Shown: in pieces, positions 849 through 15,601 of the stretch | How the letters are laid out: each line of letters starts with the position of its first letter | How positions within the stretch are numbered: the first letter of the stretch is position 1 | Assembly (NCBI GenBank): GCA_008080735.1 | Contig: SHMW01000013.1 | Location: 1 to 15,907 of the forward strand | Length of the DNA: 15,907 nucleotides | Reading direction: 5' to 3' | Source: Promethearchaeota archaeon | GTDB lineage: Archaea > Asgardarchaeota > Lokiarchaeia > Sigyniarchaeales > SOKP01 | Translations under genes and position numbers: made by a program | Notes under the pieces: model-generated | Told to the model about the DNA's origin: nothing | Seen by the model: the letters and a program-made list of their open reading frames with translations, nothing else | The model's database searches: none

Positions 849-1979
849 TTAATCTTCAGAAATGTGTAATTTGTTGATTATCATTTCATAATTAGACTTA
901 GATAAATAATAATCGGTCCATGCGGGCACTGCTTCTTTAATCTCTTCGAATAAATCTTTCCCTTTCTTAAGTACTATTGGATCATTAGACTGAGCACAAA
1001 TTGAAGCGATTAAATTTTTGGCACAATAAAGAATCTTTTGATTATTCTTATCCTTTCCAAATTTCATTAAAAAATCACCTATTAATTGAGCTTCTTGAAA
1101 TTTTACGTTATCGATGCAATGAAATCCGATTCGATATATCCACCACCACACATTGTCAGAACCTAATAAGTCCCCGAACCCAAATTGTTTATAATCCTCA
1201 AGTAATCCTTCTAAAAAAGTGTCGATTTTTTTATCTTGATTCAGAAGGTCTTGAAGTGCGCAATATCGCACATAATGCATCGGTGTGAAACCAATAGGAG
1301 CATATCCATCTTCATCAACCTCCCCTAAAAGTATCCTCTCTTTCGAAATAGCATCATTTTTACGCAAATTAAGACTTTCCAATTTAGAAAGGTTTTGTAG
1401 TCCTTTCAGTTTAATTATACGATTGTCCTCCAAGTCAAGATCTTTTAAGTTTTCTAACTTTTCTAAACCACTAATTTCAAAAATATTATTATGAGACAAG
1501 TTTAGGGATTTCAGGGCCATTAAGTTATCCAAATTTTCTATATATCTGATTCGGTTGTTTGAGAGATTTAATTCCTCCAATTTATTATTACTTTCTATAC
1601 CGCTTACTCTTTTAATATGATTCTTGGAGAGGTCCAAGATTTTCAACTCTGAGAGTTCTTCTAAGCCTTGGATTTCAATAATTCGGTTCTCGGATAAGTT
1701 TAAATTTTTTAATCTCCCCATTTCTGATAATCCATGAATGTCGGCTATATTATTGATAATATTGCCTCTTAAATTGAGATAAATTAGGTTTTTAAGCTTT
1801 TCAAGTCCTTTAATAACTGAAAGTCTATTAAAACTCAAATTGAGAATATCCAATTGATCTAAATTTTCTAATCTTTCAATTTCATTTAATTGGCTAATAC
1901 CAATGCCTCTAAGATAAAGACAGTTCTTTCCTTCATATTTGTATGTTTCGTACTCCTTTCCTTTGATGCGTACCGACAT
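849..1979 (-). CDS. Leucine-rich repeat protein (SDS22-like LRRs) with C-terminal TPR-like helical domain
   Basis: About 8-9 tandem ~22-aa repeats fitting LxxLxxLxLxxNxIxxIxxL (e.g. LKSLNLSHNNIFEISGLEKL), a cap 'GYAP...YVRYC', then ~130 aa of amphipathic helix pairs. Confidence 0.92.
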   Translation of the reverse strand: MSVRIKGKEYETYKYEGKNCLYLRGIGISQLNEIERLENLDQLDILNLSFNRLSVIKGLEKLKNLIYLNLRGNIINNIADIHGLSEMGRLKNLNLSENRIIEIQGLEELSELKILDLSKNHIKRVSGIESNNKLEELNLSNNRIRYIENLDNLMALKSLNLSHNNIFEISGLEKLENLKDLDLEDNRIIKLKGLQNLSKLESLNLRKNDAISKERILLGEVDEDGYAPIGFTPMHYVRYCALQDLLNQDKKIDTFLEGLLEDYKQFGFGDLLGSDNVWWWIYRIGFHCIDNVKFQEAQLIGDFLMKFGKDKNNQKILYCAKNLIASICAQSNDPIVLKKGKDLFEEIKEAVPAWTDYYLSKSNYEMIINKLHISED

Positions 1980-2202: not shown

Positions 2203-3351
2203 TTGGATTTTGAACTTACAGAAAAACAAGAACTTGTAAGAAGAAAAGTTAGAGCGTTTGCAGAAGATATTCTGGCGCCAGTTGCCCCAATCGTAGATCG
2301 AGAGTTGAGGTTTAGTTGGGAAACTGCCAAAGAACTAAGAAAAATAAATGCATGGGGTATCCAGCTGCCAGAGAAATACGGAGGAGCTGGGTTGGATTCG
2401 GTAAGTTATAGTGTAACAATTGAAGAGATTTCTCGTGTCTGCGCGTCTACGGGGTTAAATGTGACTGTACATAATTCTGTAGGAGCTTACCCTATTCTTG
2501 AATGGGGTACAGAGGAACAAAAAGAAAAATATCTCTATGATCTTGCTTCTGGAGAGAAAATCGCAGCCTTCACTTGGACAGAGCCTAATGCGGGCTCAGA
2601 TGCCGCGGGAATAGAAAGTAAAGCAGTTGAGAACGGAGATAATTTTATCTTAAATGGATCCAAGATATTTGTAACCAACGGTGGAGTTGCATCAGTATTT
2701 TTAGTGGGGGCAAAATATGAAAAAGAAAATGGCGAAAAAGGCAGCGCGGTCTTTATTCTCGAGAAAGATATGGAGGGGTTAGAAATCGGAAATGTTGAGG
2801 ATAAACTAGGAATGCGCGGTTCCAGCACCACAAGCTTATATTTTCACGATATTAAAATTCCCAAGAAGAATATTTTAGGAGAATTGCCAATGGGCTTCAA
2901 GATTGCGATGAAAACCTTGGATGTGGGAAGAATTGGAATTGCCGCCCAGTCTTTAGGGGTCGCTCAAGCTGCTTATGAACATTCGGTTGAATATTCGAAG
3001 GGAAGAATCCAATTTAATAAACCTATCTCGCAATTTGAAGGAGTTTCTTTCAAGCTTGCAGAAATGGCAACCAAGATCGAGGCCGCACGTATGTTAGTAT
3101 ATAAAGCTGCGAATTTAAAGGATAAAGGCACCAAATTTTCCAAAGAATCCGCGATGTGTAAGTATTTCGCAAGCCAAATCGCAAAAGAAACTACCGAAGC
3201 GGCGATTCAAATCCACGGAGGATATGGATATATGAAAGATTTACCTATTGAACGATTTTATCGAGATGCTCCTGTGTTATCGATTTATGAAGGGACGAAT
3301 GAAGTAATGAAATTAATTATTGCCAGAGAAATATTAAAGGGGAATTTGTAA
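2203..3351 (+). CDS. Acyl-CoA dehydrogenase (short-chain/butyryl-CoA dehydrogenase-like)
   Basis: TTG start, 'MDFELTEKQ' N-terminus, 'TEPNAGSDA', 'LNGSKIFVTNG', 'DKLGMRGS', 'GRIGIAAQ', 'RIQFNKPI', 'QIHGGYGY', catalytic 'IYEGTNE'. Confidence 0.97.
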   Translation: MDFELTEKQELVRRKVRAFAEDILAPVAPIVDRELRFSWETAKELRKINAWGIQLPEKYGGAGLDSVSYSVTIEEISRVCASTGLNVTVHNSVGAYPILEWGTEEQKEKYLYDLASGEKIAAFTWTEPNAGSDAAGIESKAVENGDNFILNGSKIFVTNGGVASVFLVGAKYEKENGEKGSAVFILEKDMEGLEIGNVEDKLGMRGSSTTSLYFHDIKIPKKNILGELPMGFKIAMKTLDVGRIGIAAQSLGVAQAAYEHSVEYSKGRIQFNKPISQFEGVSFKLAEMATKIEAARMLVYKAANLKDKGTKFSKESAMCKYFASQIAKETTEAAIQIHGGYGYMKDLPIERFYRDAPVLSIYEGTNEVMKLIIAREILKGNL

Positions 3352-4172
3352 TGCTTAAAATCTTTGTCTTGTTAAAACAAGTTCCAAAATCCCATAATCT
3401 CGAAATCAACAAAGAAACGGGAACTTTAATACGAGAAAATATAAAAAACATCATCAATCCGGATGATGTCAATGGATTAGAATTGGGATTACAAATCAAA
3501 GGTGTCTATGGGGGAGAGGTCACGGCGATGACGATGGGACCACCCCAAGCAAAACTTGCTCTCCGAGAAGCGTTAGCAATGGGGGTGGATCATGCCATTT
3601 TAATTAGTGATCCACAGTTCGCATATTCTGACACTCTTCAAACCACTTTAGTCTTAGAAGAAGCATTCGAGCGGATTAACAATTATGATGTAATTATTAC
3701 TGGTAGAGAAACTTCGGACTCAAGTACCGGACAAGTTCCATATCAATTATCCGAAGCTTTGAATGTCCCTCTAATTACCGATATATTTACCTATGAATTT
3801 GATGGGGATATTTTCAAATGTCAAAGAAACTTTGGTCATGAAAGTCAGAATATTGAAGTGAAATTGCCCGTGCTTTTGAGAGTTGGGAAAAATTTTAATA
3901 CACCAAGACACGTCCCTCTGGTTGGGATAAATGAGGCGTTTGAAAAAAAAATTGATATTATCAATTTCGATACGTTAAATTGCCCCGTTCATCTTGATGG
4001 GTGTAATAAATCACCAACTCAAGTCGTTAAGACAGAAAAATTCTTTCCAAAAAGGAAAAATGAATTTATTAAAGGCACTCTTAGAGATAAAATGGATGCG
4101 ATAATCGAACTAATGAAAGAAAACGGCATAGAACGGATTTGGACAGGAAAATATGATTATACGGAGGAATAA
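3351..4172 (+). CDS. etfB: Electron transfer flavoprotein beta subunit (FixA/EtfB family)
   Basis: 'KQVP', 'NPDDVNGLE', 'TMGPPQA', 'EALAMGVD', 'SDTLQT', 'SPTQV'; TAATG stop/start overlap with the dehydrogenase (3349-3353). Confidence 0.95.
   Translation: MLKIFVLLKQVPKSHNLEINKETGTLIRENIKNIINPDDVNGLELGLQIKGVYGGEVTAMTMGPPQAKLALREALAMGVDHAILISDPQFAYSDTLQTTLVLEEAFERINNYDVIITGRETSDSSTGQVPYQLSEALNVPLITDIFTYEFDGDIFKCQRNFGHESQNIEVKLPVLLRVGKNFNTPRHVPLVGINEAFEKKIDIINFDTLNCPVHLDGCNKSPTQVVKTEKFFPKRKNEFIKGTLRDKMDAIIELMKENGIERIWTGKYDYTEE
4163..4167 (+). promoter_or_regulatory. Shine-Dalgarno-like site for etfA
   Basis: GGAGG ending 11 nt before the ATG at 4179. Confidence 0.5.
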
Positions 4173-4178
4173 AGAAAA

Positions 4179-5192
4179 ATGAACGAAAAGAAAGAGTATA
4201 ATGATGTATGGGTGTTTGCTGAGATAAAGGATCACGAGCGAGTCCATCCTTGTGCATTGGAAATCTTGGGAAAAGCACGAGAGATTGCGGATGATCTAAA
4301 CCAAAATCTCGTCGCAGTTGTACTATCTCTTGAGGCAGAGCAATATCTACCCGTCATCAAAAAGCACGGTGTAGATAAAATCATCTACCTAAGCCACCAA
4401 AATCTTAAGCATTATCACGAAAGAATTTTTACTGACCTTGTCCATGAATTAATCGAAAAATATAAACCCTCGATTTTTTTATTCCCGTCGACTGAGGTTG
4501 GGAATGCACTTTCAGCTCGATTAGCATATCGTTGTCGTACCGGATTGGTAAGCGATGTTTTAGATTTAGAATTAGAAGAAGGATATGCTGACGACCTATT
4601 GCTAACGGATAAACCAGCATACGGCGGAAATATTCATGTAAAAATCATTTGCCCAAAAACTCGTCCCCAAATGTGTACAATTACTCCTGGAACATTTAAA
4701 AAAAAGAAATTAGAAAAAGAAAATATTGAATTAATTGAAGAAAATTATCATTTTGATGAGGAAAAAATACGAATAAAGATAATTGGGGCGCCTACAAGAA
4801 AAGACAAACCATCAGCACCACTTTCAGAAGCTAAATTTGTCATTGGCGGAGGTCAAGGTATCGGTTCTGAAACCAATTTTAAAAAATTGTATAAATTAGC
4901 TAAATTTACCAACGGGCAAGTCGGAGGTACTCGCCGACCTATTTTTAATGATTGGATGCCAGAACATTTACAAATAGGGATAAGCGGAGAAACTATAAAC
5001 CCTAATTTATATCTCGCCTTAGGCATTTCGGGGGCGATACAGCATGTCGTGGGTATCACCGAATCAGATACAATAATTGCCGTGAATACCGATCCTAATG
5101 CCCCAATATTTAAGACTGCTGACTATTGTATTGTAGCAGATGCGAATGAGATTCTTAATGGATTATTGGAACACTACAAAGTGGACGATTAA
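4179..5192 (+). CDS. etfA: Electron transfer flavoprotein alpha subunit (FixB/EtfA family)
   Basis: 'VWVFAE', 'PAYGGN', 'RPQMCT', FAD-binding 'QIGISGETINPNLYLALGISGAIQH', 'AVNTDPNAPIF'; 6 nt downstream of etfB. Confidence 0.96.
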   Translation: MNEKKEYNDVWVFAEIKDHERVHPCALEILGKAREIADDLNQNLVAVVLSLEAEQYLPVIKKHGVDKIIYLSHQNLKHYHERIFTDLVHELIEKYKPSIFLFPSTEVGNALSARLAYRCRTGLVSDVLDLELEEGYADDLLLTDKPAYGGNIHVKIICPKTRPQMCTITPGTFKKKKLEKENIELIEENYHFDEEKIRIKIIGAPTRKDKPSAPLSEAKFVIGGGQGIGSETNFKKLYKLAKFTNGQVGGTRRPIFNDWMPEHLQIGISGETINPNLYLALGISGAIQHVVGITESDTIIAVNTDPNAPIFKTADYCIVADANEILNGLLEHYKVDD

Positions 5193-9959: not shown

Positions 9960-11681
9960 CTATCTAGATGTTTTTTTCAATTCTCTAATTGATTTTTCTG
10001 CGAGATTTAGTGCCTCTCCTTTTTCTTTCTTCAGTTGTTCGATTTCCATTTCAAGCTCTTTTGTATATTTTTCTAACTGTTCGAGAGTCTGGGCTGTTTT
10101 TTGGTCCATACCAGCACCACCTTCAGCAGATTCTACTCGCTCTTTTAAAGAATTATATTTTTCTTCCCATACTTTTACTTCGGTTTGGAGCTCCTTTACT
10201 CTCTCATCCACGGGCATATCACTTGGCACACCACCTTCCCCAGATTGGAGTTGTTCATATTTTTCTTTCCACTTAGTAATCCCCTCCTCTAATTCCTTTA
10301 TTTTCACTTTCATCTCCGAGATCATATCTAATAGGTCATCTTTCGTTTTATCTCCTAATATTTCCTTGAACATTTCTTTTCCAGCTTCTATCTGCTCTTC
10401 TGATTTCTCTCCTAAAATACGTTGTTTCCGCTTTTGTGTTTCTTCCACTGTTTCTTGGGAAAGAAAATCAAGTGCGTTAAATCCTATACCTCCATGCTGG
10501 GTTATTCTCTGCCGAACTTTTACAAAAATTGGTACCCCGCGAACTGCTTCTCCACTAATAATACCTTCTCCTCTATCTAATCCGCTGATATCATCCTTAT
10601 TGTCGCGGCTTAAATCTTCTGCACTTGAAATTGTGATATTAATGTCATTCACATCTGAGAGACTGTGGACAACCCAGGTTCCAGCCTGTGCTCTGATTGT
10701 AGTGTCCAATAATTGAGGTCTTTGGGTCCCGATTACTAAGTTGGAACCAAATTTCCGCCCCTCTTGGGAGAATAATTTTACAGTTTCACATGTAGAAGTT
10801 TTCTTCTTTCCAGCAAAAAGATGTGCTTCATCTAAAAACAAATAGAAAGGAGGGATTTTTCTCGAAGTACTGGCTTGATATAATTTCTTTAATAATCTTC
10901 CCGCAATGGTCTCTTGAGCTTCTAGGGAAATACCTCTCATATTAATAATACTACAAAGATTAGGTGCTACGATATCCGTCTCATCCAGGGAAAATAGATA
11001 TTCGATATCGATATCCGCACCCTTATTTATAGTTAAATCGGAAAATTCAATAATATTGTCTATGAATTCGCTCTCGCCACCACCTTCCTCCTCACTTGCA
11101 ATTTTCAGACTGCCATATTCACCATGTCTGTCGAGAATTACGACGGGGATCCCTTTTTTCATAAATTCTTCACATAACACTCCCATCGTATAGGACTTTC
11201 CGCTACCAGATCGTCCGGTAATAAATACTCGTCCAAAATCTTTAATGAGTAAATTCACATCGAAATCATATCCAAGTAGTTTTCCAAGAGCTACAGACTT
11301 TTCAGGAGGATTATCGATTCCCAATAAATCTCTAATTTGATCCTCTTTAGCTAAAAAGACTTTAGAACCGACCTCGAATGGCCTTCTTGGTCGATCACCG
11401 ACTACGCTCAATTCGGCTTTCATTCCCTCACTATCGTTCCATATTTTACTAATTGAGAGGATATAATAATCGCGCTCCCCTTTTTTCTTTTTCTCCTTCT
11501 CGTCCCTATATACAGTGAGATAACTAGTGCGTTCTACTTCCTTGCTTTCAATTAGAAGGGTAGCTGAACTGAGTTCGGTCTTACCAGTTAGCCGCCCGAC
11601 CGATTTCTCTTCGGGCTTGCCACCTTGGTTATCAGCGGCAGGAGCATTATCATCATTTTCGGGTCCATTATCATCTGACAT
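9960..11681 (-). CDS. HerA/DUF87-like ATPase (FtsK-HerA superfamily) with N-terminal HAS-barrel-like domain and C-terminal coiled coil
   Basis: Walker A GRSGSGKS (aa156-163), 'DRHGEY', Walker B 'LFLDEAH', Arg finger 'EGRKFG', 'TQRP', terminal 'HGG'; aa ~27-112 resemble a HAS barrel ('VGRLTG...RPFEVGSKVFLA'); aa ~405-573 are E/K-rich heptads. GAGTGA SD-like site upstream. Confidence 0.92.
   Translation of the reverse strand: MSDDNGPENDDNAPAADNQGGKPEEKSVGRLTGKTELSSATLLIESKEVERTSYLTVYRDEKEKKKKGERDYYILSISKIWNDSEGMKAELSVVGDRPRRPFEVGSKVFLAKEDQIRDLLGIDNPPEKSVALGKLLGYDFDVNLLIKDFGRVFITGRSGSGKSYTMGVLCEEFMKKGIPVVILDRHGEYGSLKIASEEEGGGESEFIDNIIEFSDLTINKGADIDIEYLFSLDETDIVAPNLCSIINMRGISLEAQETIAGRLLKKLYQASTSRKIPPFYLFLDEAHLFAGKKKTSTCETVKLFSQEGRKFGSNLVIGTQRPQLLDTTIRAQAGTWVVHSLSDVNDINITISSAEDLSRDNKDDISGLDRGEGIISGEAVRGVPIFVKVRQRITQHGGIGFNALDFLSQETVEETQKRKQRILGEKSEEQIEAGKEMFKEILGDKTKDDLLDMISEMKVKIKELEEGITKWKEKYEQLQSGEGGVPSDMPVDERVKELQTEVKVWEEKYNSLKERVESAEGGAGMDQKTAQTLEQLEKYTKELEMEIEQLKKEKGEALNLAEKSIRELKKTSR
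10116..10298 (-). repeat. Protein-level tandem duplication (34-aa period) in the ATPase coiled coil
   Basis: KELEEGITKWKEKYEQLQSGEGG versus KELQTEVKVWEEKYNSLKERVESAEGG; the Trp codons at 10269-10271 and 10167-10169 are 102 nt apart. Confidence 0.7.
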
Positions 11682-11800: not shown

Positions 11801-12733
11801 CTAAGCTTGTTTTTGATAGACTATATATTTTTTGACCATATATTTTGGATGATAGGATTCTTTTGCTTTTCGCAGTCCGGGAACTCCTAGATCTTGTTCT
11901 CGATTCACGAATTTCGCATTTTCATCGCAGCAATTTTTTAGAAACATATTATTGATTGCTTGGTACGATCCTTCATAATATGTATGTGCTTTTTCGATAT
12001 GAATCACATTGGTGTCCTCGTTGAGCATCTCCCCAAAAGTATATCCCGCGGGTTTTCCATCCACTAACAAAAGCCCGCCATTATAATCGAGATCAGTATA
12101 ATGGTCCAAAAATCGGTCAATTGCTATTTGTTCCTGTTCTAAATCTTCATTAGATTGGCATTCATTGATAATACACCACTTATTTTGGAGACTTCGACAT
12201 TTTTCGAGCCAGTCTTCAGTAACAAGATGAAACTCATAGTCGTATTGCTCCAAAAACCTTTCTAAGAGCCGCCTTTTCGAACGGTATTTGTTCCCCTCCA
12301 GCGCGATAAGGTCTTCTTTATCATACATATAATCCCAATTGGCTCTATCTTCTTCGATTGCTAAGTTAAGTTTCTTAAATTCTTCCATATCTTGTAGTAT
12401 TGATATTAATGACTCTGGGACGCGGTGTATTTCACACTTAGGTAGTTTTGTAAATAGATCCAAGATCACTTGCTCGGGGTTTTTTCCAATGGGTGGAAAG
12501 AAGAAAAGAACATCGTCGGAATTCTTTTTGGAAGATTTCCACTTTCCTAAGAAATCATTTGAAAAAACAATCAAATGGTCTTCATTTTCTATATATAGAG
12601 AATGGTAATAATTTTGCCATGCAAAGAGATTCGTGAAGGTAAATTCGGAAATTTCTGGGGGGTATTTCTGAAAATAAGAATCAAATTTTTCTTTATCGGA
12701 GAGTTCAATCTTCTTAGCGCGTTCTAAATCCAT
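11801..12733 (-). CDS. Stand-alone DUF2156 protein (MprF/LPG-synthase C-terminal-like, aminoacyl-tRNA-dependent GNAT-fold transferase)
   Basis: 'SEFTFTNLFAW', 'FFPPIG', 'DYMY...LIALEGNKYRSKR', 'HIEKA', 'VNREQDLGVPGLRKAKESYHP'; no TM segments. Confidence 0.9.
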   Translation of the reverse strand: MDLERAKKIELSDKEKFDSYFQKYPPEISEFTFTNLFAWQNYYHSLYIENEDHLIVFSNDFLGKWKSSKKNSDDVLFFFPPIGKNPEQVILDLFTKLPKCEIHRVPESLISILQDMEEFKKLNLAIEEDRANWDYMYDKEDLIALEGNKYRSKRRLLERFLEQYDYEFHLVTEDWLEKCRSLQNKWCIINECQSNEDLEQEQIAIDRFLDHYTDLDYNGGLLLVDGKPAGYTFGEMLNEDTNVIHIEKAHTYYEGSYQAINNMFLKNCCDENAKFVNREQDLGVPGLRKAKESYHPKYMVKKYIVYQKQA

Positions 12734-12802: not shown

Positions 12803-15601
12803 CTAAATCTGTCTCAAAAAATTTTCGATTTTCTCTCTTTTTTTCTCTTTTATATGTTTTGGAATAGTAAAGCTGAATATCGTCCCGTTCCCTAATACAC
12901 TTTTGAACCATATCTCTCCGCCATGTAAATTTATTAATCGTTTCGCTAATGGCAAGCCTAAGCCCGTTCCAGTGGTATTGCGCACCCTCTCGCTCCTCGA
13001 CCTTTTAAACTCCTCAAATATTATATCTCTTTCTTCTTCAGAGATTCCAATTCCTTCATCTTCTATCCTAAATAACCAAAAGTCTTTATTCTCCTCGATT
13101 TCTATAGAAATTTTTCCATCAATCGAGAATTTAATTGCATTACTAATAATATTGTATAAAATAGATTTGAGTTTTATAGGATCAGCATACATTTGTTGTG
13201 AATTTTTTAATCCTTGAATCTCAATATCAAGAGATTTTTCCTTTAATAATGCTCTAAATTCTGAAATGGTCTGATTGATAACTTTTTCTAAGGAAAAATG
13301 TTTTAGCTTTAACTCCATTACCCCCGAATCAATTTTAGATATATCTAAAATCTCCTTAATCATATTTAATAAATGCTCAGCGCTTGACAAAATATCTTTA
13401 AGATATTCCTCTTGAAGTGGAGAGAGTTCATTAATTTCACCCTCCAAAAGTAATTCTGAAAACCCAATTATTACATTTAATGGAGTTCGAAATTCATGGC
13501 TCATTGTCGCCATGAACTGACTTTTGAACTGCGATGCCTTCGTAATTTCCTTCATGTATAATTGTTGTTCTGCAAGAGCTTCCTCTAATTTCTTCGTCCG
13601 TTTATTGACTTTTTCCTCTAATTTCTTATTAAATTCTTTTTGTAATTCTTCTCGCTTCTTTTGTTCTGTGATATCATTTAATATTGTTTGTATATAGGTT
13701 TGATTATTTCTCTGAAAGACAATTGAAGTAGTCTTCACCCAGATTTTTTTTCCGTCTTTTCTTCTAATCTCGAAATTCATGGGTTTCTGGGTTTTTCCTT
13801 CAGATAATTGTGTGAACTTTCTAACAAGTTCTTTTAATTGACTCTGGTTGGGAAAGATATCTAAACGAAAAAATTCCCTCCCAATAAGTTCATCCTTATT
13901 GTAGTGAATAATTTCAAAGGTTGCGGGATTACAATCTAAAATAATTCCCTCTTTTGAAAATAAGATAATTGAGTATGGTGATTTCTCGACTAGTAACCGA
14001 TATTTCTCTTCTGATTTTTTCAACTCTTTTTGTCTGCTTTTTCTCTCATCAATATCAAGCGTTAGAATCAAATCAGCAGTGCGCCCATTGTATGTTACGG
14101 GTTTACTGTATATTTCGCACCAATAACTCTCTCCCGTCTTTCTTAATCCAAGGAACTCATAGTTTTCCATATACCCCTGTATTCCCATTTGTTTTTTATT
14201 TGCTTGTTCTCTTACAAATTCCCTGTCTTTGGGGTGAATTGTTTTAAGATAATCGCCTGGTTTCCACTTTCCAACCTCTTCATTTGAATATCCAGTTTGT
14301 TTTATAAACTCCCGATTCCAAAACTTCAGCTTATCATCTTGAAGGATTGTCATTGCAATAAAAGATTGATTTGCAATTGATTGGAATATTTCTTGGGATT
14401 CTTTTAGTTTTTCTTCGGCTCGCTTCTTTTGAGTGATATCAGTAAGGATTGTTACTAAATAATTCTTCATGGGAGAATATGCTAAAACATCATACCACTT
14501 CTGTAGAGGCTTTGAATATGTTTCAAACCGAGCTGGTTTTCTGGTTACTGCAACATGATTATATTGATTAATCCAGTCCGTGGGCTCATTTTCAATATCA
14601 GACCATAAATTTCCTATTTTCTTTCCGAGTATTTTCTTTTTATCTAATCCCGTTATATTTTCGAATGCAGAGTTAATTTCTAAAACTACATAATCAATCG
14701 GATTATTTTCTTCATCATAAAGTATTTTATGAAACGCAAACCCATCGGGAATATTTTGGAATAGAGTACGGTATTTTTCTTCAGACTTTTTTAACATTTT
14801 TTCTGCTTCTTTACGTTCGCGTATATCCCGAGAAATTATAAGAGATTTTTTTTCCCCATCAATTGTTTCGAAGAATTTTCCTTTTAATTCAAACCAGAAT
14901 AGATCTCCATTTTTTGCAACGTATCGCAGTTCTGTTCTCGCTTCCTCCCCATTTAAACCTCTAAGGGTTGTCTTTCGTGCTTTTCCATAGTCTTTCGGAT
15001 ATACATATAACGTAGGATGTTGCCCAATTAATTCTTTCTGAGTATATCCTAAAATTTCCTCATAATGCTTATTTACATATTCATGTTTAAAATCAGCGTC
15101 TAAAATTGCGATCAAATCATTAGCATATTCAAAAATATTGTTATAATAGATTTCTTTAGATCTAAGTGCTTTTTCCTTAGAAGATACTAACTTTTTCAAT
15201 TTTTTGTTTAGGAGTTTTCGCTCTGTAATATCTTTAGCAATACCCAATACCGCATATATCTCCTCATCTTTTTTCACGGGAATTCCATATGCATCCACAT
15301 AAATAAATCCGTTCTCCTTTTTCTTCACTTTATAATCGGAAGTTTCTATCTGTTCTCCCGTTTTTAATAAGGTACGGATACTTTTGTAGGCTCTTTTCAG
15401 ACTCTTTTTGTCCAGAATATCGATTAGATTAAGATTCTGAATCTCCCCACGATTATATCCCATTTTCTCTAGAGCAATATCATTAGCATCGATAAAATCT
15501 CCTTTTAAATTATATACATAAATCAAGTCAAGCGAATATTGAAATAGTCCCTTAAATTGTTCCCGCACTAGTTCCTTAATATCGTTTATATCACTATTCA
15601 A
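12803..15601 (-). CDS. Soluble sensor histidine kinase with five PAS domains (HisKA + HATPase_c)
   Basis: Five PAS/PAC units ending DITERK, DIRERK, DITQKK, DIDERK, DITEQK; H-box 'MSHEFRTPLN' (His at 13496-13498), N-box 'NIISNAIKF', 'DEGIGI', 'GTGLGL', 'HGG'; TTG start; no TM or receiver domain. Confidence 0.96.
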   Translation of the reverse strand: MNSDINDIKELVREQFKGLFQYSLDLIYVYNLKGDFIDANDIALEKMGYNRGEIQNLNLIDILDKKSLKRAYKSIRTLLKTGEQIETSDYKVKKKENGFIYVDAYGIPVKKDEEIYAVLGIAKDITERKLLNKKLKKLVSSKEKALRSKEIYYNNIFEYANDLIAILDADFKHEYVNKHYEEILGYTQKELIGQHPTLYVYPKDYGKARKTTLRGLNGEEARTELRYVAKNGDLFWFELKGKFFETIDGEKKSLIISRDIRERKEAEKMLKKSEEKYRTLFQNIPDGFAFHKILYDEENNPIDYVVLEINSAFENITGLDKKKILGKKIGNLWSDIENEPTDWINQYNHVAVTRKPARFETYSKPLQKWYDVLAYSPMKNYLVTILTDITQKKRAEEKLKESQEIFQSIANQSFIAMTILQDDKLKFWNREFIKQTGYSNEEVGKWKPGDYLKTIHPKDREFVREQANKKQMGIQGYMENYEFLGLRKTGESYWCEIYSKPVTYNGRTADLILTLDIDERKSRQKELKKSEEKYRLLVEKSPYSIILFSKEGIILDCNPATFEIIHYNKDELIGREFFRLDIFPNQSQLKELVRKFTQLSEGKTQKPMNFEIRRKDGKKIWVKTTSIVFQRNNQTYIQTILNDITEQKKREELQKEFNKKLEEKVNKRTKKLEEALAEQQLYMKEITKASQFKSQFMATMSHEFRTPLNVIIGFSELLLEGEINELSPLQEEYLKDILSSAEHLLNMIKEILDISKIDSGVMELKLKHFSLEKVINQTISEFRALLKEKSLDIEIQGLKNSQQMYADPIKLKSILYNIISNAIKFSIDGKISIEIEENKDFWLFRIEDEGIGISEEERDIIFEEFKRSRSERVRNTTGTGLGLPLAKRLINLHGGEIWFKSVLGNGTIFSFTIPKHIKEKKREKIENFLRQI

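What the first reader, a model, noticed from the sequence alone, without database searches (positions are those of the whole stretch)
9960..11681. Partner-less, re-architected HerA-like ATPase: short core plus long coiled-coil tail
Seen: all FtsK-HerA catalytic motifs are intact, but only ~55 aa (including a low-complexity EEEGGGES linker) separate DRHGEY (aa189) from the next core strand (IINMRG, ~aa245). There is an acidic, likely disordered N-terminus, and a ~170-aa coiled coil follows the usual 'HGG' end of the domain. Known: canonical archaeal HerA has a much larger helical insertion at this position, ends soon after HGG, and is encoded with nurA/mre11/rad50; defence HerAs sit by Sir2 or nuclease genes. 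None of these is in the window. Inference: a distinct subfamily whose tails project from a hexameric ring to tether the motor to a scaffold or substrate (chromosome segregation, division, secretion or protein handling) rather than doing end resection.
Basis: partly seen in the sequence, partly recalled or inferred. Interest (0 to 1): 0.7.

Follow-up and report, generated by a model that had tools for sequence, protein, structure and literature searches.

The report
Tailed compact HerA-like ATPase of Asgard archaea
This gene encodes an uncharacterised, strongly conserved branch of the HerA/FtsK ring-motor family that lacks HerA's helical insert and carries a conserved helical tail. In one related archaeal lineage it sits inside the ESCRT gene cluster, which makes it a candidate, so far unproven, for a DNA pump working with that membrane-cutting machinery.

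Summary
The 573-aa ORF lies on the minus strand (9960-11681). It has a 27-aa acidic disordered N-terminus, a HAS barrel, a compact HerA-type ATPase core with all motifs, and a 173-aa tail.

Two corrections. The tail is not one long coiled coil: it is linker helices plus three short heptad blocks separated by Gly-rich linkers, ending in a conserved basic helix. The N-terminus is mostly a folded HAS barrel.

The gene is a paralogue of canonical HerA, because the same genome has a separate nurA-herA operon. Orthologues all carry a tail. They occur in every sampled genome of several Asgard families and, as ~1000-aa forms, in Bathyarchaeia, Nezhaarchaeales and Methanomethylicales. Together they form one well-supported clade (SH-aLRT 99).

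No gene partner is conserved across lineages. In one Helarchaeota MAG, however, the orthologue lies between ESCRT-III genes and upstream of Vps4. Five sister genomes carry a different HerA-family ATPase in that same slot.

Best reading (inferred): a housekeeping hexameric translocase, probably of DNA, docked by its tail to a cellular scaffold, possibly ESCRT. A new variant of a known kind.

Earlier notes of this scan found the same family on other DNA.

The parts
9960..11681 (-). Whole CDS, 573 aa plus stop: tailed compact HerA-like ATPase
   Evidence: ORF list and translation. Pfam DUF87 scores 58.1 bits against a cut-off of 23.2. Hundreds of orthologues at 60-98% identity.
11601..11681 (-). 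Acidic, poorly conserved N-terminal stretch (residues 1-27)
   Evidence: pLDDT below 50 for residues 1-23. Orthologue matches start at about residues 16-28.
11307..11600 (-). HAS barrel (residues 28-125)
   Evidence: AF2 beta strands 29-110 with pLDDT above 90. VIA alignment starts at model residue 26 = HerA 4d2i residue 1.
10482..11306 (-). Compact RecA-like ATPase core (residues 126-400)
   Evidence: VIA Z 31.2, rmsd 2.3, 337 aligned to Sulfolobus HerA. Foldseek E 1e-25.
11190..11213 (-). Walker A (RSGSGKSY, residues 157-164)
   Evidence: Translation. G161, K162 and S163 invariant in 62 sequences.
11115..11132 (-). DRHGEY motif (residues 184-189)
   Evidence: D184, H186, G187 and E188 invariant.
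10956..11114 (-). Short replacement of HerA's helical insertion (residues 190-242), including the EEEGGGES linker
   Evidence: About 80 aa against 159/208 aa between aligned blocks. The linker is the site of 50-130-aa Zn-ribbon/acidic insertions in some orthologues.
10821..10841 (-). Walker B (LFLDEAH, residues 281-287)
   Evidence: E285 and H287 invariant.
10746..10763 (-). EGRKFG motif (residues 307-312)
   Evidence: E307, G308, R309, K310 and F311 invariant.
10488..10514 (-). RQRITQHGG, end of the core (residues 390-398)
   Evidence: R390 and R392 invariant; H396 and G397 at least 90% conserved.
9963..10481 (-). C-terminal helical tail (residues 401-573)
   Evidence: Present in 128/128 Asgard orthologues, 122-196 aa long. 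Five helices in AF2. Tail-only pTM 0.32, so no confident globular packing.
10245..10343 (-). Heptad block 1 (residues 447-479, carries WKEKY)
   Evidence: 9/10 a/d positions hydrophobic; 0/2000 shuffles as good.
10128..10211 (-). Heptad block 2 (residues 491-518, carries WEEKY; W505 nearly invariant)
   Evidence: 8/8 a/d positions hydrophobic, 0/2000 shuffles. W505 at least 90% conserved.
9966..10103 (-). Last helix (residues 527-572); AF2 pairs it with block 2 as a helical hairpin
   Evidence: AF2. Only generic hairpin matches, Z up to 9.3.
9972..10019 (-). Conserved terminal motif GEALNLAEKSIRELKK (residues 555-570): A..LAE..I..LKK followed by a basic end
   Evidence: A557 and A561 invariant; E562, E567 and K569 at least 90% conserved across Asgard lineages. 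A loose pattern matches 118/128 orthologues and a stricter one 85/128. Also present in the ESCRT-embedded Helarchaeota orthologue.

Best explanation
SHOWN. The gene encodes a full-length, apparently catalytically competent member of the HerA branch of the FtsK-HerA ATPases. It has a HAS barrel and a RecA-like core in which HerA's helical insertion is reduced to about 50 residues. A 173-aa tail follows: linker helices, three short heptad blocks separated by flexible Gly-rich linkers, and a conserved basic terminal helix. It is a paralogue of the genome's NurA-linked HerA. It belongs to a well-supported clade, found in every sampled genome of several Asgard families, that also includes ~1000-aa forms in some Thermoproteota.

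INFERRED. Like solved HerAs, it assembles into a hexameric ring that uses ATP to pump a polymer, most likely double-stranded DNA, through its pore. It has no fixed nuclease partner, so it acts as a translocase rather than an end-resection engine. Its six flexible tails act as adaptors: the heptad blocks pair with each other or with a partner, and the invariant terminal helix docks the ring onto a cellular scaffold.

The best candidate scaffold is the ESCRT-III/Vps4 machinery. The motor would then move or clear DNA at sites of membrane constriction, in an FtsK-like role.
For: Fold and motifs:
- VIA Z 31.2 to HerA 4d2i, against 23.1 for VirB4 and 17.9 for FtsK.
- Motor residues are invariant in 62 sequences.

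Paralogy: the genome has a nurA-herA operon elsewhere.

Housekeeping-type distribution:
- Orthologue found in 25/25, 19/19, 4/4 and 2/2 genomes of four Asgard families.
- Core identity is 88% with the closest relative in the tree; whole-protein identity is 60-98% among the listed Asgard orthologues.
- Synteny with metabolic genes is conserved within the family.

One clade, SH-aLRT 99.

Tail under selection: present in 128/128 orthologues, with invariant A557 and A561 and nearly invariant W505, E562 and K569.

ESCRT link:
- In Helarchaeota MAG L078 the gene order is Snf7 | orthologue, Snf7, Snf7, Vps4, Vps25 | UEV, RING, E1.
- That orthologue falls inside the Asgard clade and keeps the terminal motif.
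- Five of the six other genomes of that order lack the orthologue. They carry a different DUF87 ATPase of 907-955 aa (up to 1169 aa open frame) in the same slot beside the Snf7 genes.

Side support: a haloarchaeal 'DUF87 domain protein', HVO_1301, is a CdpB1 interactor that localises to midcell (bioRxiv 10.64898/2026.07.16.738847). A compact-core, coiled-coil-tailed DUF87 family is present in 377/401 Halobacteria genomes.
Against: - No biochemical, localisation or expression data exist for this family; no RNA-holding run was listed.
- The ESCRT adjacency of this family rests on a single MAG. In 11 other genomes tested, including the window's own, ESCRT-III, Vps4 and the true EAP30 gene lie on other contigs.
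- The family was not found in 84 of 151 sampled Asgard genomes, including families f7 (0/26) and f5 (0/13). It is therefore not a universal ESCRT companion; the ESCRT content of those families was not checked here.
- The terminal motif shows no specific similarity to ESCRT-III C-termini: these rank 107th and 442nd of 3885 ORFs.
- The tail as a whole is net acidic.
- Whether HVO_1301 belongs to the widespread haloarchaeal compact family was not verified by sequence. That family sits on a very long branch, and its deletion had only minor effects.
- The substrate (DNA or protein) is not determined by anything here.
Confidence: 0.4

Rival explanations
1. A NurA-independent DNA repair or recombination motor. 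The ring works in trans with a nuclease or recombination factor encoded elsewhere, for example the orphan NurA on contig 91, and the tail recruits that partner or Rad50/SMC-like proteins.
For: - The closest solved relatives are repair HerAs.
- The genome has an orphan NurA with no adjacent HerA.
- A sister relation to NurA-linked HerAs is not rejected (p-AU 0.08).
- In one Helarchaeota genome a Hef/ERCC4 helicase-nuclease follows the Snf7 pair, so repair genes do occur in that neighbourhood.
Against: - NurA copy number does not track the family. Fifteen of the 25 other f1 genomes have a single NurA hit yet all 25 have the orthologue, and f7 genomes have NurA but no orthologue.
- No nuclease neighbour was found in any lineage examined.
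- HerA's insertion domain is missing.
Confidence: 0.2
2. A protein-handling or polymer-remodelling ATPase rather than a DNA pump. Either it threads or extracts proteins, for example ESCRT-III subunits or substrates of the neighbouring DUF2156 aminoacyl-transferase-like protein and M42/TET peptidase. Or it is a secretion-type ATPase like EssC/VirB4.
For: - The order DUF2156 gene - ATPase - M42 peptidase is conserved in most Loki-family loci, and the DUF2156 adjacency also appears in a Hermodarchaeota contig.
- Another first-stage note, e1-5636484, read this run as a tag-and-process module.
- FtsK-HerA relatives include protein-secretion ATPases.
- The ESCRT context would also fit a polymer remodeller.
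Against: - The DUF2156/M42 synteny is confined to one order-level group. It is absent from the Thor-like, Baldr, Hel and Thermoproteota loci.
- Intergenic gaps are 120 and 188 bp.
- No membrane or secretion partners were found.
- Structural similarity to HerA (Z 31) far exceeds that to EssC/EccC (Z 16-17).
- Vps4 already fills the ESCRT-III remodelling role.
Confidence: 0.12
3. An anti-virus defence or mobile-element ATPase, like Sir2-HerA, DUF4297-HerA or Mad8, whose effector was missed.
For: - PADLOC HerA and mad8 profiles hit at 75-97 bits. mad8 aligns in one stretch over residues 142-397, so compact HerA-like cores exist in defence systems.
- The Halovenus-type relatives are 85-92% identical between different haloarchaeal genera, which suggests mobility.
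Against: - Present in every sampled genome of several families, at conserved chromosomal positions next to housekeeping genes.
- No effector or defence hit among the neighbours.
- High sequence conservation.
- NCBIfam anti-phage HerA cut-offs are missed by about tenfold.
Confidence: 0.05

Closest known systems
Archaeal HerA of the HerA-NurA / Mre11-Rad50 end-resection system (Sulfolobus solfataricus 4d2i; Thermococcus kodakarensis 9x1l)
   Same: HAS barrel plus RecA-like core. All ATPase motifs are shared. VIA Z 31.2 with 337 aligned residues, 26% identity. A hexameric dsDNA translocase mechanism is therefore the default expectation.
   Different: - The helical insertion is reduced by about 80-125 aa.
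- There is a 173-aa conserved tail.
- No nurA neighbour; the genome keeps a separate nurA-herA operon.
- NCBIfam equivalog scores are 96 and 89 bits against cut-offs of 800 and 970.
- It forms a separate clade.
Bacterial FtsK/SpoIIIE (E. coli motor domain 2ius)
   Same: Same superfamily and fold (Z 17.9). The proposed role is the same: a ring DNA pump tethered to the division machinery by a long non-catalytic region.
   Different: - No membrane domain and no gamma (KOPS-reading) domain.
- No Pfam FtsK_SpoIIIE hit.
- The tether is a C-terminal helical tail, not an N-terminal membrane anchor plus linker.
- The functional analogy is inferred only.
Haloarchaeal compact DUF87 proteins (e.g. Natrinema P0416; probably HVO_1301 of Haloferax volcanii, a midcell-localised CdpB1 interactor)
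   Same: Compact core without the big insertion, followed by a coiled coil. It lies on the same side of the tree as the window's family. It is nearly universal in its class (377/401 genomes). HVO_1301 is at midcell.
   Different: - No HAS barrel.
- An acidic linker and a different C-terminal domain, with only weak HTH hits.
- About 26% identity, E around 1e-13.
- Very long branch.
- The identity of HVO_1301 with this family was not verified by sequence.
Anti-phage HerA partners (Sir2-HerA/Nezha 8j4u, DUF4297-HerA 9c1m, TdpAB) and Mad8
   Same: HerA fold (Z 22-30). Mad8 also has a compact core.
   Different: No effector partner. Housekeeping-type distribution and synteny. NCBIfam cut-offs not reached.
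The 907-955-aa DUF87 ATPase between the ESCRT-III genes of Helarchaeales (L163, L164, L166)
   Same: HerA-family motor occupying the same genomic slot as the family's orthologue in a sister genome. The two are mutually exclusive across 7 genomes.
   Different: - A separate long branch.
- A ~300-aa helical N-domain instead of a recognisable HAS barrel.
- A large insertion.
- A Pro-rich linker and a C-terminal alpha/beta domain.
- Also uncharacterised.

Membership tests
FtsK-HerA superfamily, HerA/DUF87 branch (Pfam PF01935) | DUF87 profile match above the gathering score | tested here: met
   58.1 bits against 23.2. Only profile positions 3-96 of 220 match, because the insertion is missing.
FtsK-HerA superfamily, HerA/DUF87 branch (Pfam PF01935) | Walker A, Walker B (DEAH), and conserved Arg/Lys motifs intact | tested here: met
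   RSGSGKSY, LFLDEAH, EGRKFG and RQRITQHGG are present. Their key residues are invariant in 62 sequences.
FtsK-HerA superfamily, HerA/DUF87 branch (Pfam PF01935) | HAS barrel plus RecA-like fold superposable on solved HerA | tested here: met
   AF2 pLDDT above 90 over residues 28-400. VIA Z 31.2, rmsd 2.3, 337 aligned to 4d2i. Foldseek E 1e-25.
FtsK-HerA superfamily, HerA/DUF87 branch (Pfam PF01935) | Hexameric ring with a central pore | not testable with these tools
   Only monomer prediction was available.
Canonical DSB-repair HerA (NCBIfam NF040937, NF040819) | Equivalog score cut-off | tested here: not met
   96.1 against 800, and 88.6 against 970.
Canonical DSB-repair HerA (NCBIfam NF040937, NF040819) | Helical insertion domain between Walker A and B | tested here: not met
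   About 80 aa against 159 aa (4d2i) and 208 aa (9x1l) between aligned blocks.
Canonical DSB-repair HerA (NCBIfam NF040937, NF040819) | Operon with nurA (often also mre11 and rad50) | tested here: not met
   No NurA or nuclease domain in the window or in 40 related loci clustered. The genome's nurA-herA operon is on contig 58.
Canonical DSB-repair HerA (NCBIfam NF040937, NF040819) | Phylogenetic placement with NurA-linked HerAs | tested here: inconclusive
   The family is its own clade (SH-aLRT 99) and lies apart from them in both trees. A tree forcing the two to be sister groups is not rejected (p-AU 0.082).
Anti-phage HerA (NF042943, NF042944; Sir2-HerA, DUF4297-HerA) | Equivalog score cut-off | tested here: not met
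   76.4 against 800, and 37.8 against 850.
Anti-phage HerA (NF042943, NF042944; Sir2-HerA, DUF4297-HerA) | Adjacent effector (Sir2, DUF4297 or another nuclease) | tested here: not met
   The neighbours are a DUF2156-family protein and an M42 peptidase. Neither has a PADLOC hit.
FtsK/SpoIIIE | FtsK_SpoIIIE profile, N-terminal membrane anchor, gamma domain | tested here: not met
   No such Pfam hit at E <= 0.01. The translation shows no hydrophobic N-terminus. Fold similarity is Z 17.9, well below that to HerA.
Ced DNA-import ATPase CedD (NF053655) | Equivalog score cut-off | tested here: not met
   57.4 against 600.

The most novel reading that the evidence does not exclude
This family is the long-missing archaeal counterpart of FtsK. 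It would be a HerA-derived DNA pump that its conserved tail recruits to ESCRT-III/Vps4 (or to the divisome). It would clear or segregate chromosomal DNA during membrane scission in Asgard archaea and some Thermoproteota. On this reading a DNA-handling motor was part of the ESCRT module in the archaeal relatives of eukaryotes.
Probability: 0.2. Interest if true: 0.85.

Novelty: new variant of a known kind. Interest (0 to 1): 0.6.

Why it matters
How archaea keep DNA out of the closing division site is an open question. No FtsK equivalent is established for ESCRT-based or FtsZ-based archaeal division.

This is a strongly conserved, single-copy HerA-type motor with no nuclease partner and a selected docking tail. 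In one Asgard lineage it, or a different HerA-family ATPase, sits between the ESCRT-III genes. That gives a concrete candidate that can be expressed, imaged in the cultured Lokiarchaeia and tested for binding to ESCRT or divisome proteins.

Independently of function, it defines a compact-core, tail-bearing branch of the HerA family. That branch spans Asgard archaea and several Thermoproteota, with haloarchaeal relatives, and current family libraries name it only 'DUF87 / HerA domain protein'.

Tried and rejected
Neighbourhoods were taken instead from the genome search, the fetch from genomes and the search for related loci.
- **MIM-like terminal helix.** The C-termini of Helarchaeota ESCRT-III proteins look superficially similar. 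A PSSM of the family's last 16-mer ranks the own genome's ESCRT-III C-termini only 107th and 442nd of 3885 ORFs, with no other protein scoring well. The idea is not supported and remains speculation.
- **Tail fold.** The tail-only AF2 model has pTM 0.32, and only generic helical-hairpin matches appear (Z up to 9.3, below the level meaningful for helical models). No known domain is assigned.
- **Winged-helix reading of the Halovenus-type C-terminal domain.** No Pfam or PDB sequence hit. The widespread haloarchaeal family has only weak HTH hits.
- **HVO_1301.** It could not be linked by sequence to the haloarchaeal compact family. Named hits were all Natrialbaceae, genome handles are anonymous, and canonical haloarchaeal HerAs have similar lengths.
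- **EAP30 neighbour in the Thor-like family.** A 32-bit EAP30-like gene lies 2.5 kb downstream. The true ESCRT-II EAP30 (86-97 bits) sits beside Vps4 on another contig, so this is not an ESCRT-cluster link.
- **Metagenome scan** for more Helarchaeota-type orthologues found only Thermoproteota-type ~1000-aa relatives.
- **Orphan NurA as hidden partner.** NurA copy number does not track the family.
- **Literature.** Searches for HerA together with Asgard, ESCRT or coiled-coil terms found no description of this family.
Full report
**The gene.** The finding's coordinates hold one ORF on the minus strand (ATG at 11681, stop at 9960-9962, 573 aa).
- DRHGEY at residues 184-189.
- The EEEGGGES linker at 197-204.
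- IINMRG at 245-250.
- HGG at 396-398.
- A 173-aa extension after that.

Pfam finds DUF87 (58 bits, but only profile positions 3-96 of 220) and a weak HerA_C match. NCBIfam's HerA equivalogs score 76-96 bits against cut-offs of 800-970.

Against solved structures the best sequence match is Sulfolobus HerA 4d2i (E 2.6e-21), in two blocks. Between those blocks the query has about 80 residues, where 4d2i has 159 and the Thermococcus HerA 9x1l has 208.

**Structure.** An AlphaFold2 model built on a 62-sequence alignment has mean pLDDT 83.8, and above 90 for residues 28-400.
- Residues 1-23 are below pLDDT 50.
- Residues 28-125 form a beta barrel.
- Residues 126-400 form the RecA-like core.
- The tail is five helices (409-424, 428-442, 447-479, 491-518, 527-572) interrupted at Gly-rich linkers.

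Comparison with about 48,000 PDB representatives puts HerA first (4d2i: Z 31.2, rmsd 2.3, 337 aligned; model residues 26-401 against chain residues 1-472). Anti-phage HerAs score Z 22-30, VirB4 23, TrwB 18 and FtsK 17.9. Foldseek agrees. The N-terminus is therefore a short acidic stretch followed by a proper HAS barrel.

The 'coiled coil' is segmented. Blocks 447-479 and 491-518 have 9/10 and 8/8 hydrophobic a/d positions, and none of 2000 shuffles reach that. The last helix does not keep one register. A tail-only model has pTM 0.32. It pairs the last two helices as a hairpin and finds only generic hairpin matches.

**Paralogy and distribution.** The window's genome (4.1 Mb, 93% complete) has two other DUF87 genes. 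One overlaps the end of a nurA gene on contig 58, in a classic nurA-herA operon. A second NurA, on contig 91, stands alone. The window gene is therefore an extra paralogue.

A search of 5.8 billion proteins returns hundreds of orthologues of 552-578 aa at 60-98% identity. They come from MAGs labelled Loki-, Thor-, Hod- and Heimdallarchaeota.

In 151 genomes sampled from the phylum:
- An orthologue (E below 1e-100) is present in 25/25, 19/19, 4/4, 2/2 and 1/1 genomes of five families.
- It was not found in others, for example 0/26 and 0/13.

A library-wide HMMER search and a scan of named genomes add several groups:
- Baldr-/Odinarchaeota proteins of 495 aa.
- Hel- and Hermodarchaeota members.
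- ~1000-aa forms in Bathyarchaeia, Nezhaarchaeales and Methanomethylicales, at 42-47% identity over the first 400 residues. In these the core is followed by a middle region, a coiled coil and many CxxC zinc ribbons.
- A sparser haloarchaeal 'Halovenus type' (31% identity, E 7e-57), with a core, a coiled coil and an unassigned C-terminal domain. It is 85-92% identical between different genera, which hints at mobility.

**Phylogeny.** IQ-TREE (LG+C20, SH-aLRT) was run on the whole alignment and on the ATPase core alone (residues 128-400, 281 columns).
- The Asgard proteins and the long Thermoproteota forms join in one clade with support 99.
- The Halovenus type is the next neighbour (88).
- Canonical HerAs lie across a branch with support 99 (full alignment) or 89-90 (core only). 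These include the genome's own NurA-linked copy.
- A tree forcing the family to be sister to the NurA-linked HerAs is 20.8 log-likelihood units worse but is not rejected (p-AU 0.082). The family is distinct; its sister group is unresolved.

**The tail is conserved.**
- All 128 Asgard orthologues examined have 122-196 residues after the HGG motif, median 173.
- A W-x-x-K-Y motif occurs at least once in 123 of them.
- The terminal A..LAE..I..LKK helix is found in 85 with a strict pattern and in 118 with a looser one.
- Across Asgard lineages N402, A557 and A561 are invariant. F401, L404, D405, L407, W505, K508, E562, E567 and K569 are at least 90% conserved.

That pattern fits specific contacts, not a generic spacer.

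The EEEGGGES linker is a hot spot. Some Loki genera carry 50-130-aa acidic insertions there, with a zinc ribbon.

**Gene neighbourhood.** I clustered the ORFs of 40 related loci plus the window and annotated the recurrent neighbours.
- Within the window's family, a DUF2156/LPG_synthase_C gene lies directly upstream in 9 of 13 loci including the window, and an M42 peptidase directly downstream in 7 of 13. The DUF2156 adjacency also appears in a Hermodarchaeota contig.
- The Thor-like, Baldr and Thermoproteota loci have entirely different neighbours: GluRS, an NfeD-family protein, TrmI and homocitrate synthase-like genes.
- No nuclease, Sir2 or defence hit occurs anywhere.
- NurA copy number does not follow the family.

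**The ESCRT exception.** In Helarchaeota MAG contig JAHPZH010000009.1 (L078) the 491-aa orthologue is 50% identical to the window protein. It falls inside the Asgard clade and ends ...KAIRIAEEAIAESKKRGRY. Its neighbourhood reads:
- One Snf7 gene upstream, on the opposite strand.
- Then, co-directional with it: two more Snf7 genes, Vps4 (MIT + AAA + Vps4_C) and an ESCRT-II/Vps25 gene.
- Beyond these: UEV/E2, RING and E1 genes.

Across the seven genomes of that order:
- Five lack the orthologue. They have a different DUF87 protein of 907-955 aa (up to 1169 aa open frame) between or beside the Snf7 genes. It forms a separate long branch.
- One has neither; there a Hef/ERCC4 helicase-nuclease follows the Snf7 pair.

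So six of the seven have a HerA-family ATPase in that slot, of two mutually exclusive kinds. This is the strongest functional hint.

It is also limited. For the window's family the adjacency rests on one MAG. In eleven other genomes the ESCRT-III, Vps4 and true EAP30 genes lie on other contigs than the orthologue. These include the window's own genome.

The ESCRT papers I could read do not mention such an ATPase.

**Haloarchaeal lead.** A compact DUF87 family occurs in 377 of 401 sampled Halobacteria genomes. It has no HAS barrel, about 40 aa in place of the insertion, a coiled coil, an acidic linker and a small C-terminal domain. It matches the window protein collinearly over residues 140-555 (E about 1e-13).

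A 2026 preprint reports that HVO_1301 ('DUF87 domain protein', 588 aa) is a CdpB1 interactor localised at midcell, and that its deletion has minor effects. I could not verify by sequence that HVO_1301 belongs to this family, and the family's branch is very long. It counts as a lead only.

**Reading.**
- Shown: a real, intact, conserved HerA-family paralogue with a compact core and a selected tail. It has no fixed partner and forms its own clade.
- Inferred: a hexameric translocase, most likely of dsDNA, whose tails dock it to a scaffold. ESCRT-III/Vps4 is the best candidate, giving an FtsK-like role.

Rivals are a repair motor working in trans, a protein or polymer remodeller (possibly tied to the DUF2156/M42 neighbours), and a defence ATPase. 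My test of a MIM-like terminal motif was negative.

The same family was flagged on other DNA by several earlier notes of this scan.

Noticed in passing
window 11801-12733 (-): A stand-alone cytosolic DUF2156/LPG_synthase_C protein (the aminoacyl-tRNA transferase-like domain of MprF, 148 bits) lies directly upstream of the ATPase. The adjacency is kept in 9 of 13 Loki-family loci including the window, and in a Hermodarchaeota contig. Its function in archaea is unknown.
   Followed up: partly
window 12803-15601 (-): A 932-aa soluble histidine kinase with five PAS domains, co-directional with the DUF2156 gene (70-bp gap).
   Followed up: no
window 849-1979 (-): A 376-aa leucine-rich-repeat protein with a non-LRR C-terminal half that has no Pfam match.
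   Followed up: no
window 2203-5192 (+): An acyl-CoA dehydrogenase followed by ETF beta and ETF alpha, tightly packed (shared or adjacent start and stop). This is a conserved block in several Loki-family loci.
   Followed up: no
L163:4634-7357, L164:5170-7941, L166:1698-4565: Helarchaeales carry an uncharacterised 907-955-aa DUF87 ATPase between their two ESCRT-III genes. It has a ~300-aa helical N-domain, a large insertion, a Pro-rich linker and a C-terminal alpha/beta domain. It is present in 5 of 7 genomes of the order.
   Followed up: partly
L165:6972-9248: In the one Helarchaeales genome without any HerA-family gene at the ESCRT-III pair, a Hef-type helicase-ERCC4 nuclease directly follows the two Snf7 genes.
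   Followed up: no
P0122; G144:C8:53267-55024; G147:C10:360100-361605: Some Loki genera have a 50-130-aa acidic insertion with a CPWC...C..C zinc ribbon exactly at the EEEGGGES linker of the ATPase core. Earlier notes e1-5542335 and e1-4885776 saw the same.
   Followed up: partly
P0129, P0127, P0136; L082-L086, L091: The Thermoproteota members of the clade are ~1000 aa long. The core is followed by a ~200-aa middle region, a coiled coil and a ~250-aa C-terminus packed with about 20 CxxC pairs (tandem zinc ribbons).
   Followed up: no
P0301-P0322 (Halovenus, Halorubrum, Salinigranum): The Halovenus-type relative is 85-92% identical between different haloarchaeal genera and was found in only 2 of 151 sampled Halobacteria genomes. 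This suggests recent horizontal spread.
   Followed up: no
G000:C91:8805-9686 (L055:1210-2487): The window's genome has a second NurA-like gene of 425 aa with no HerA next to it.
   Followed up: partly
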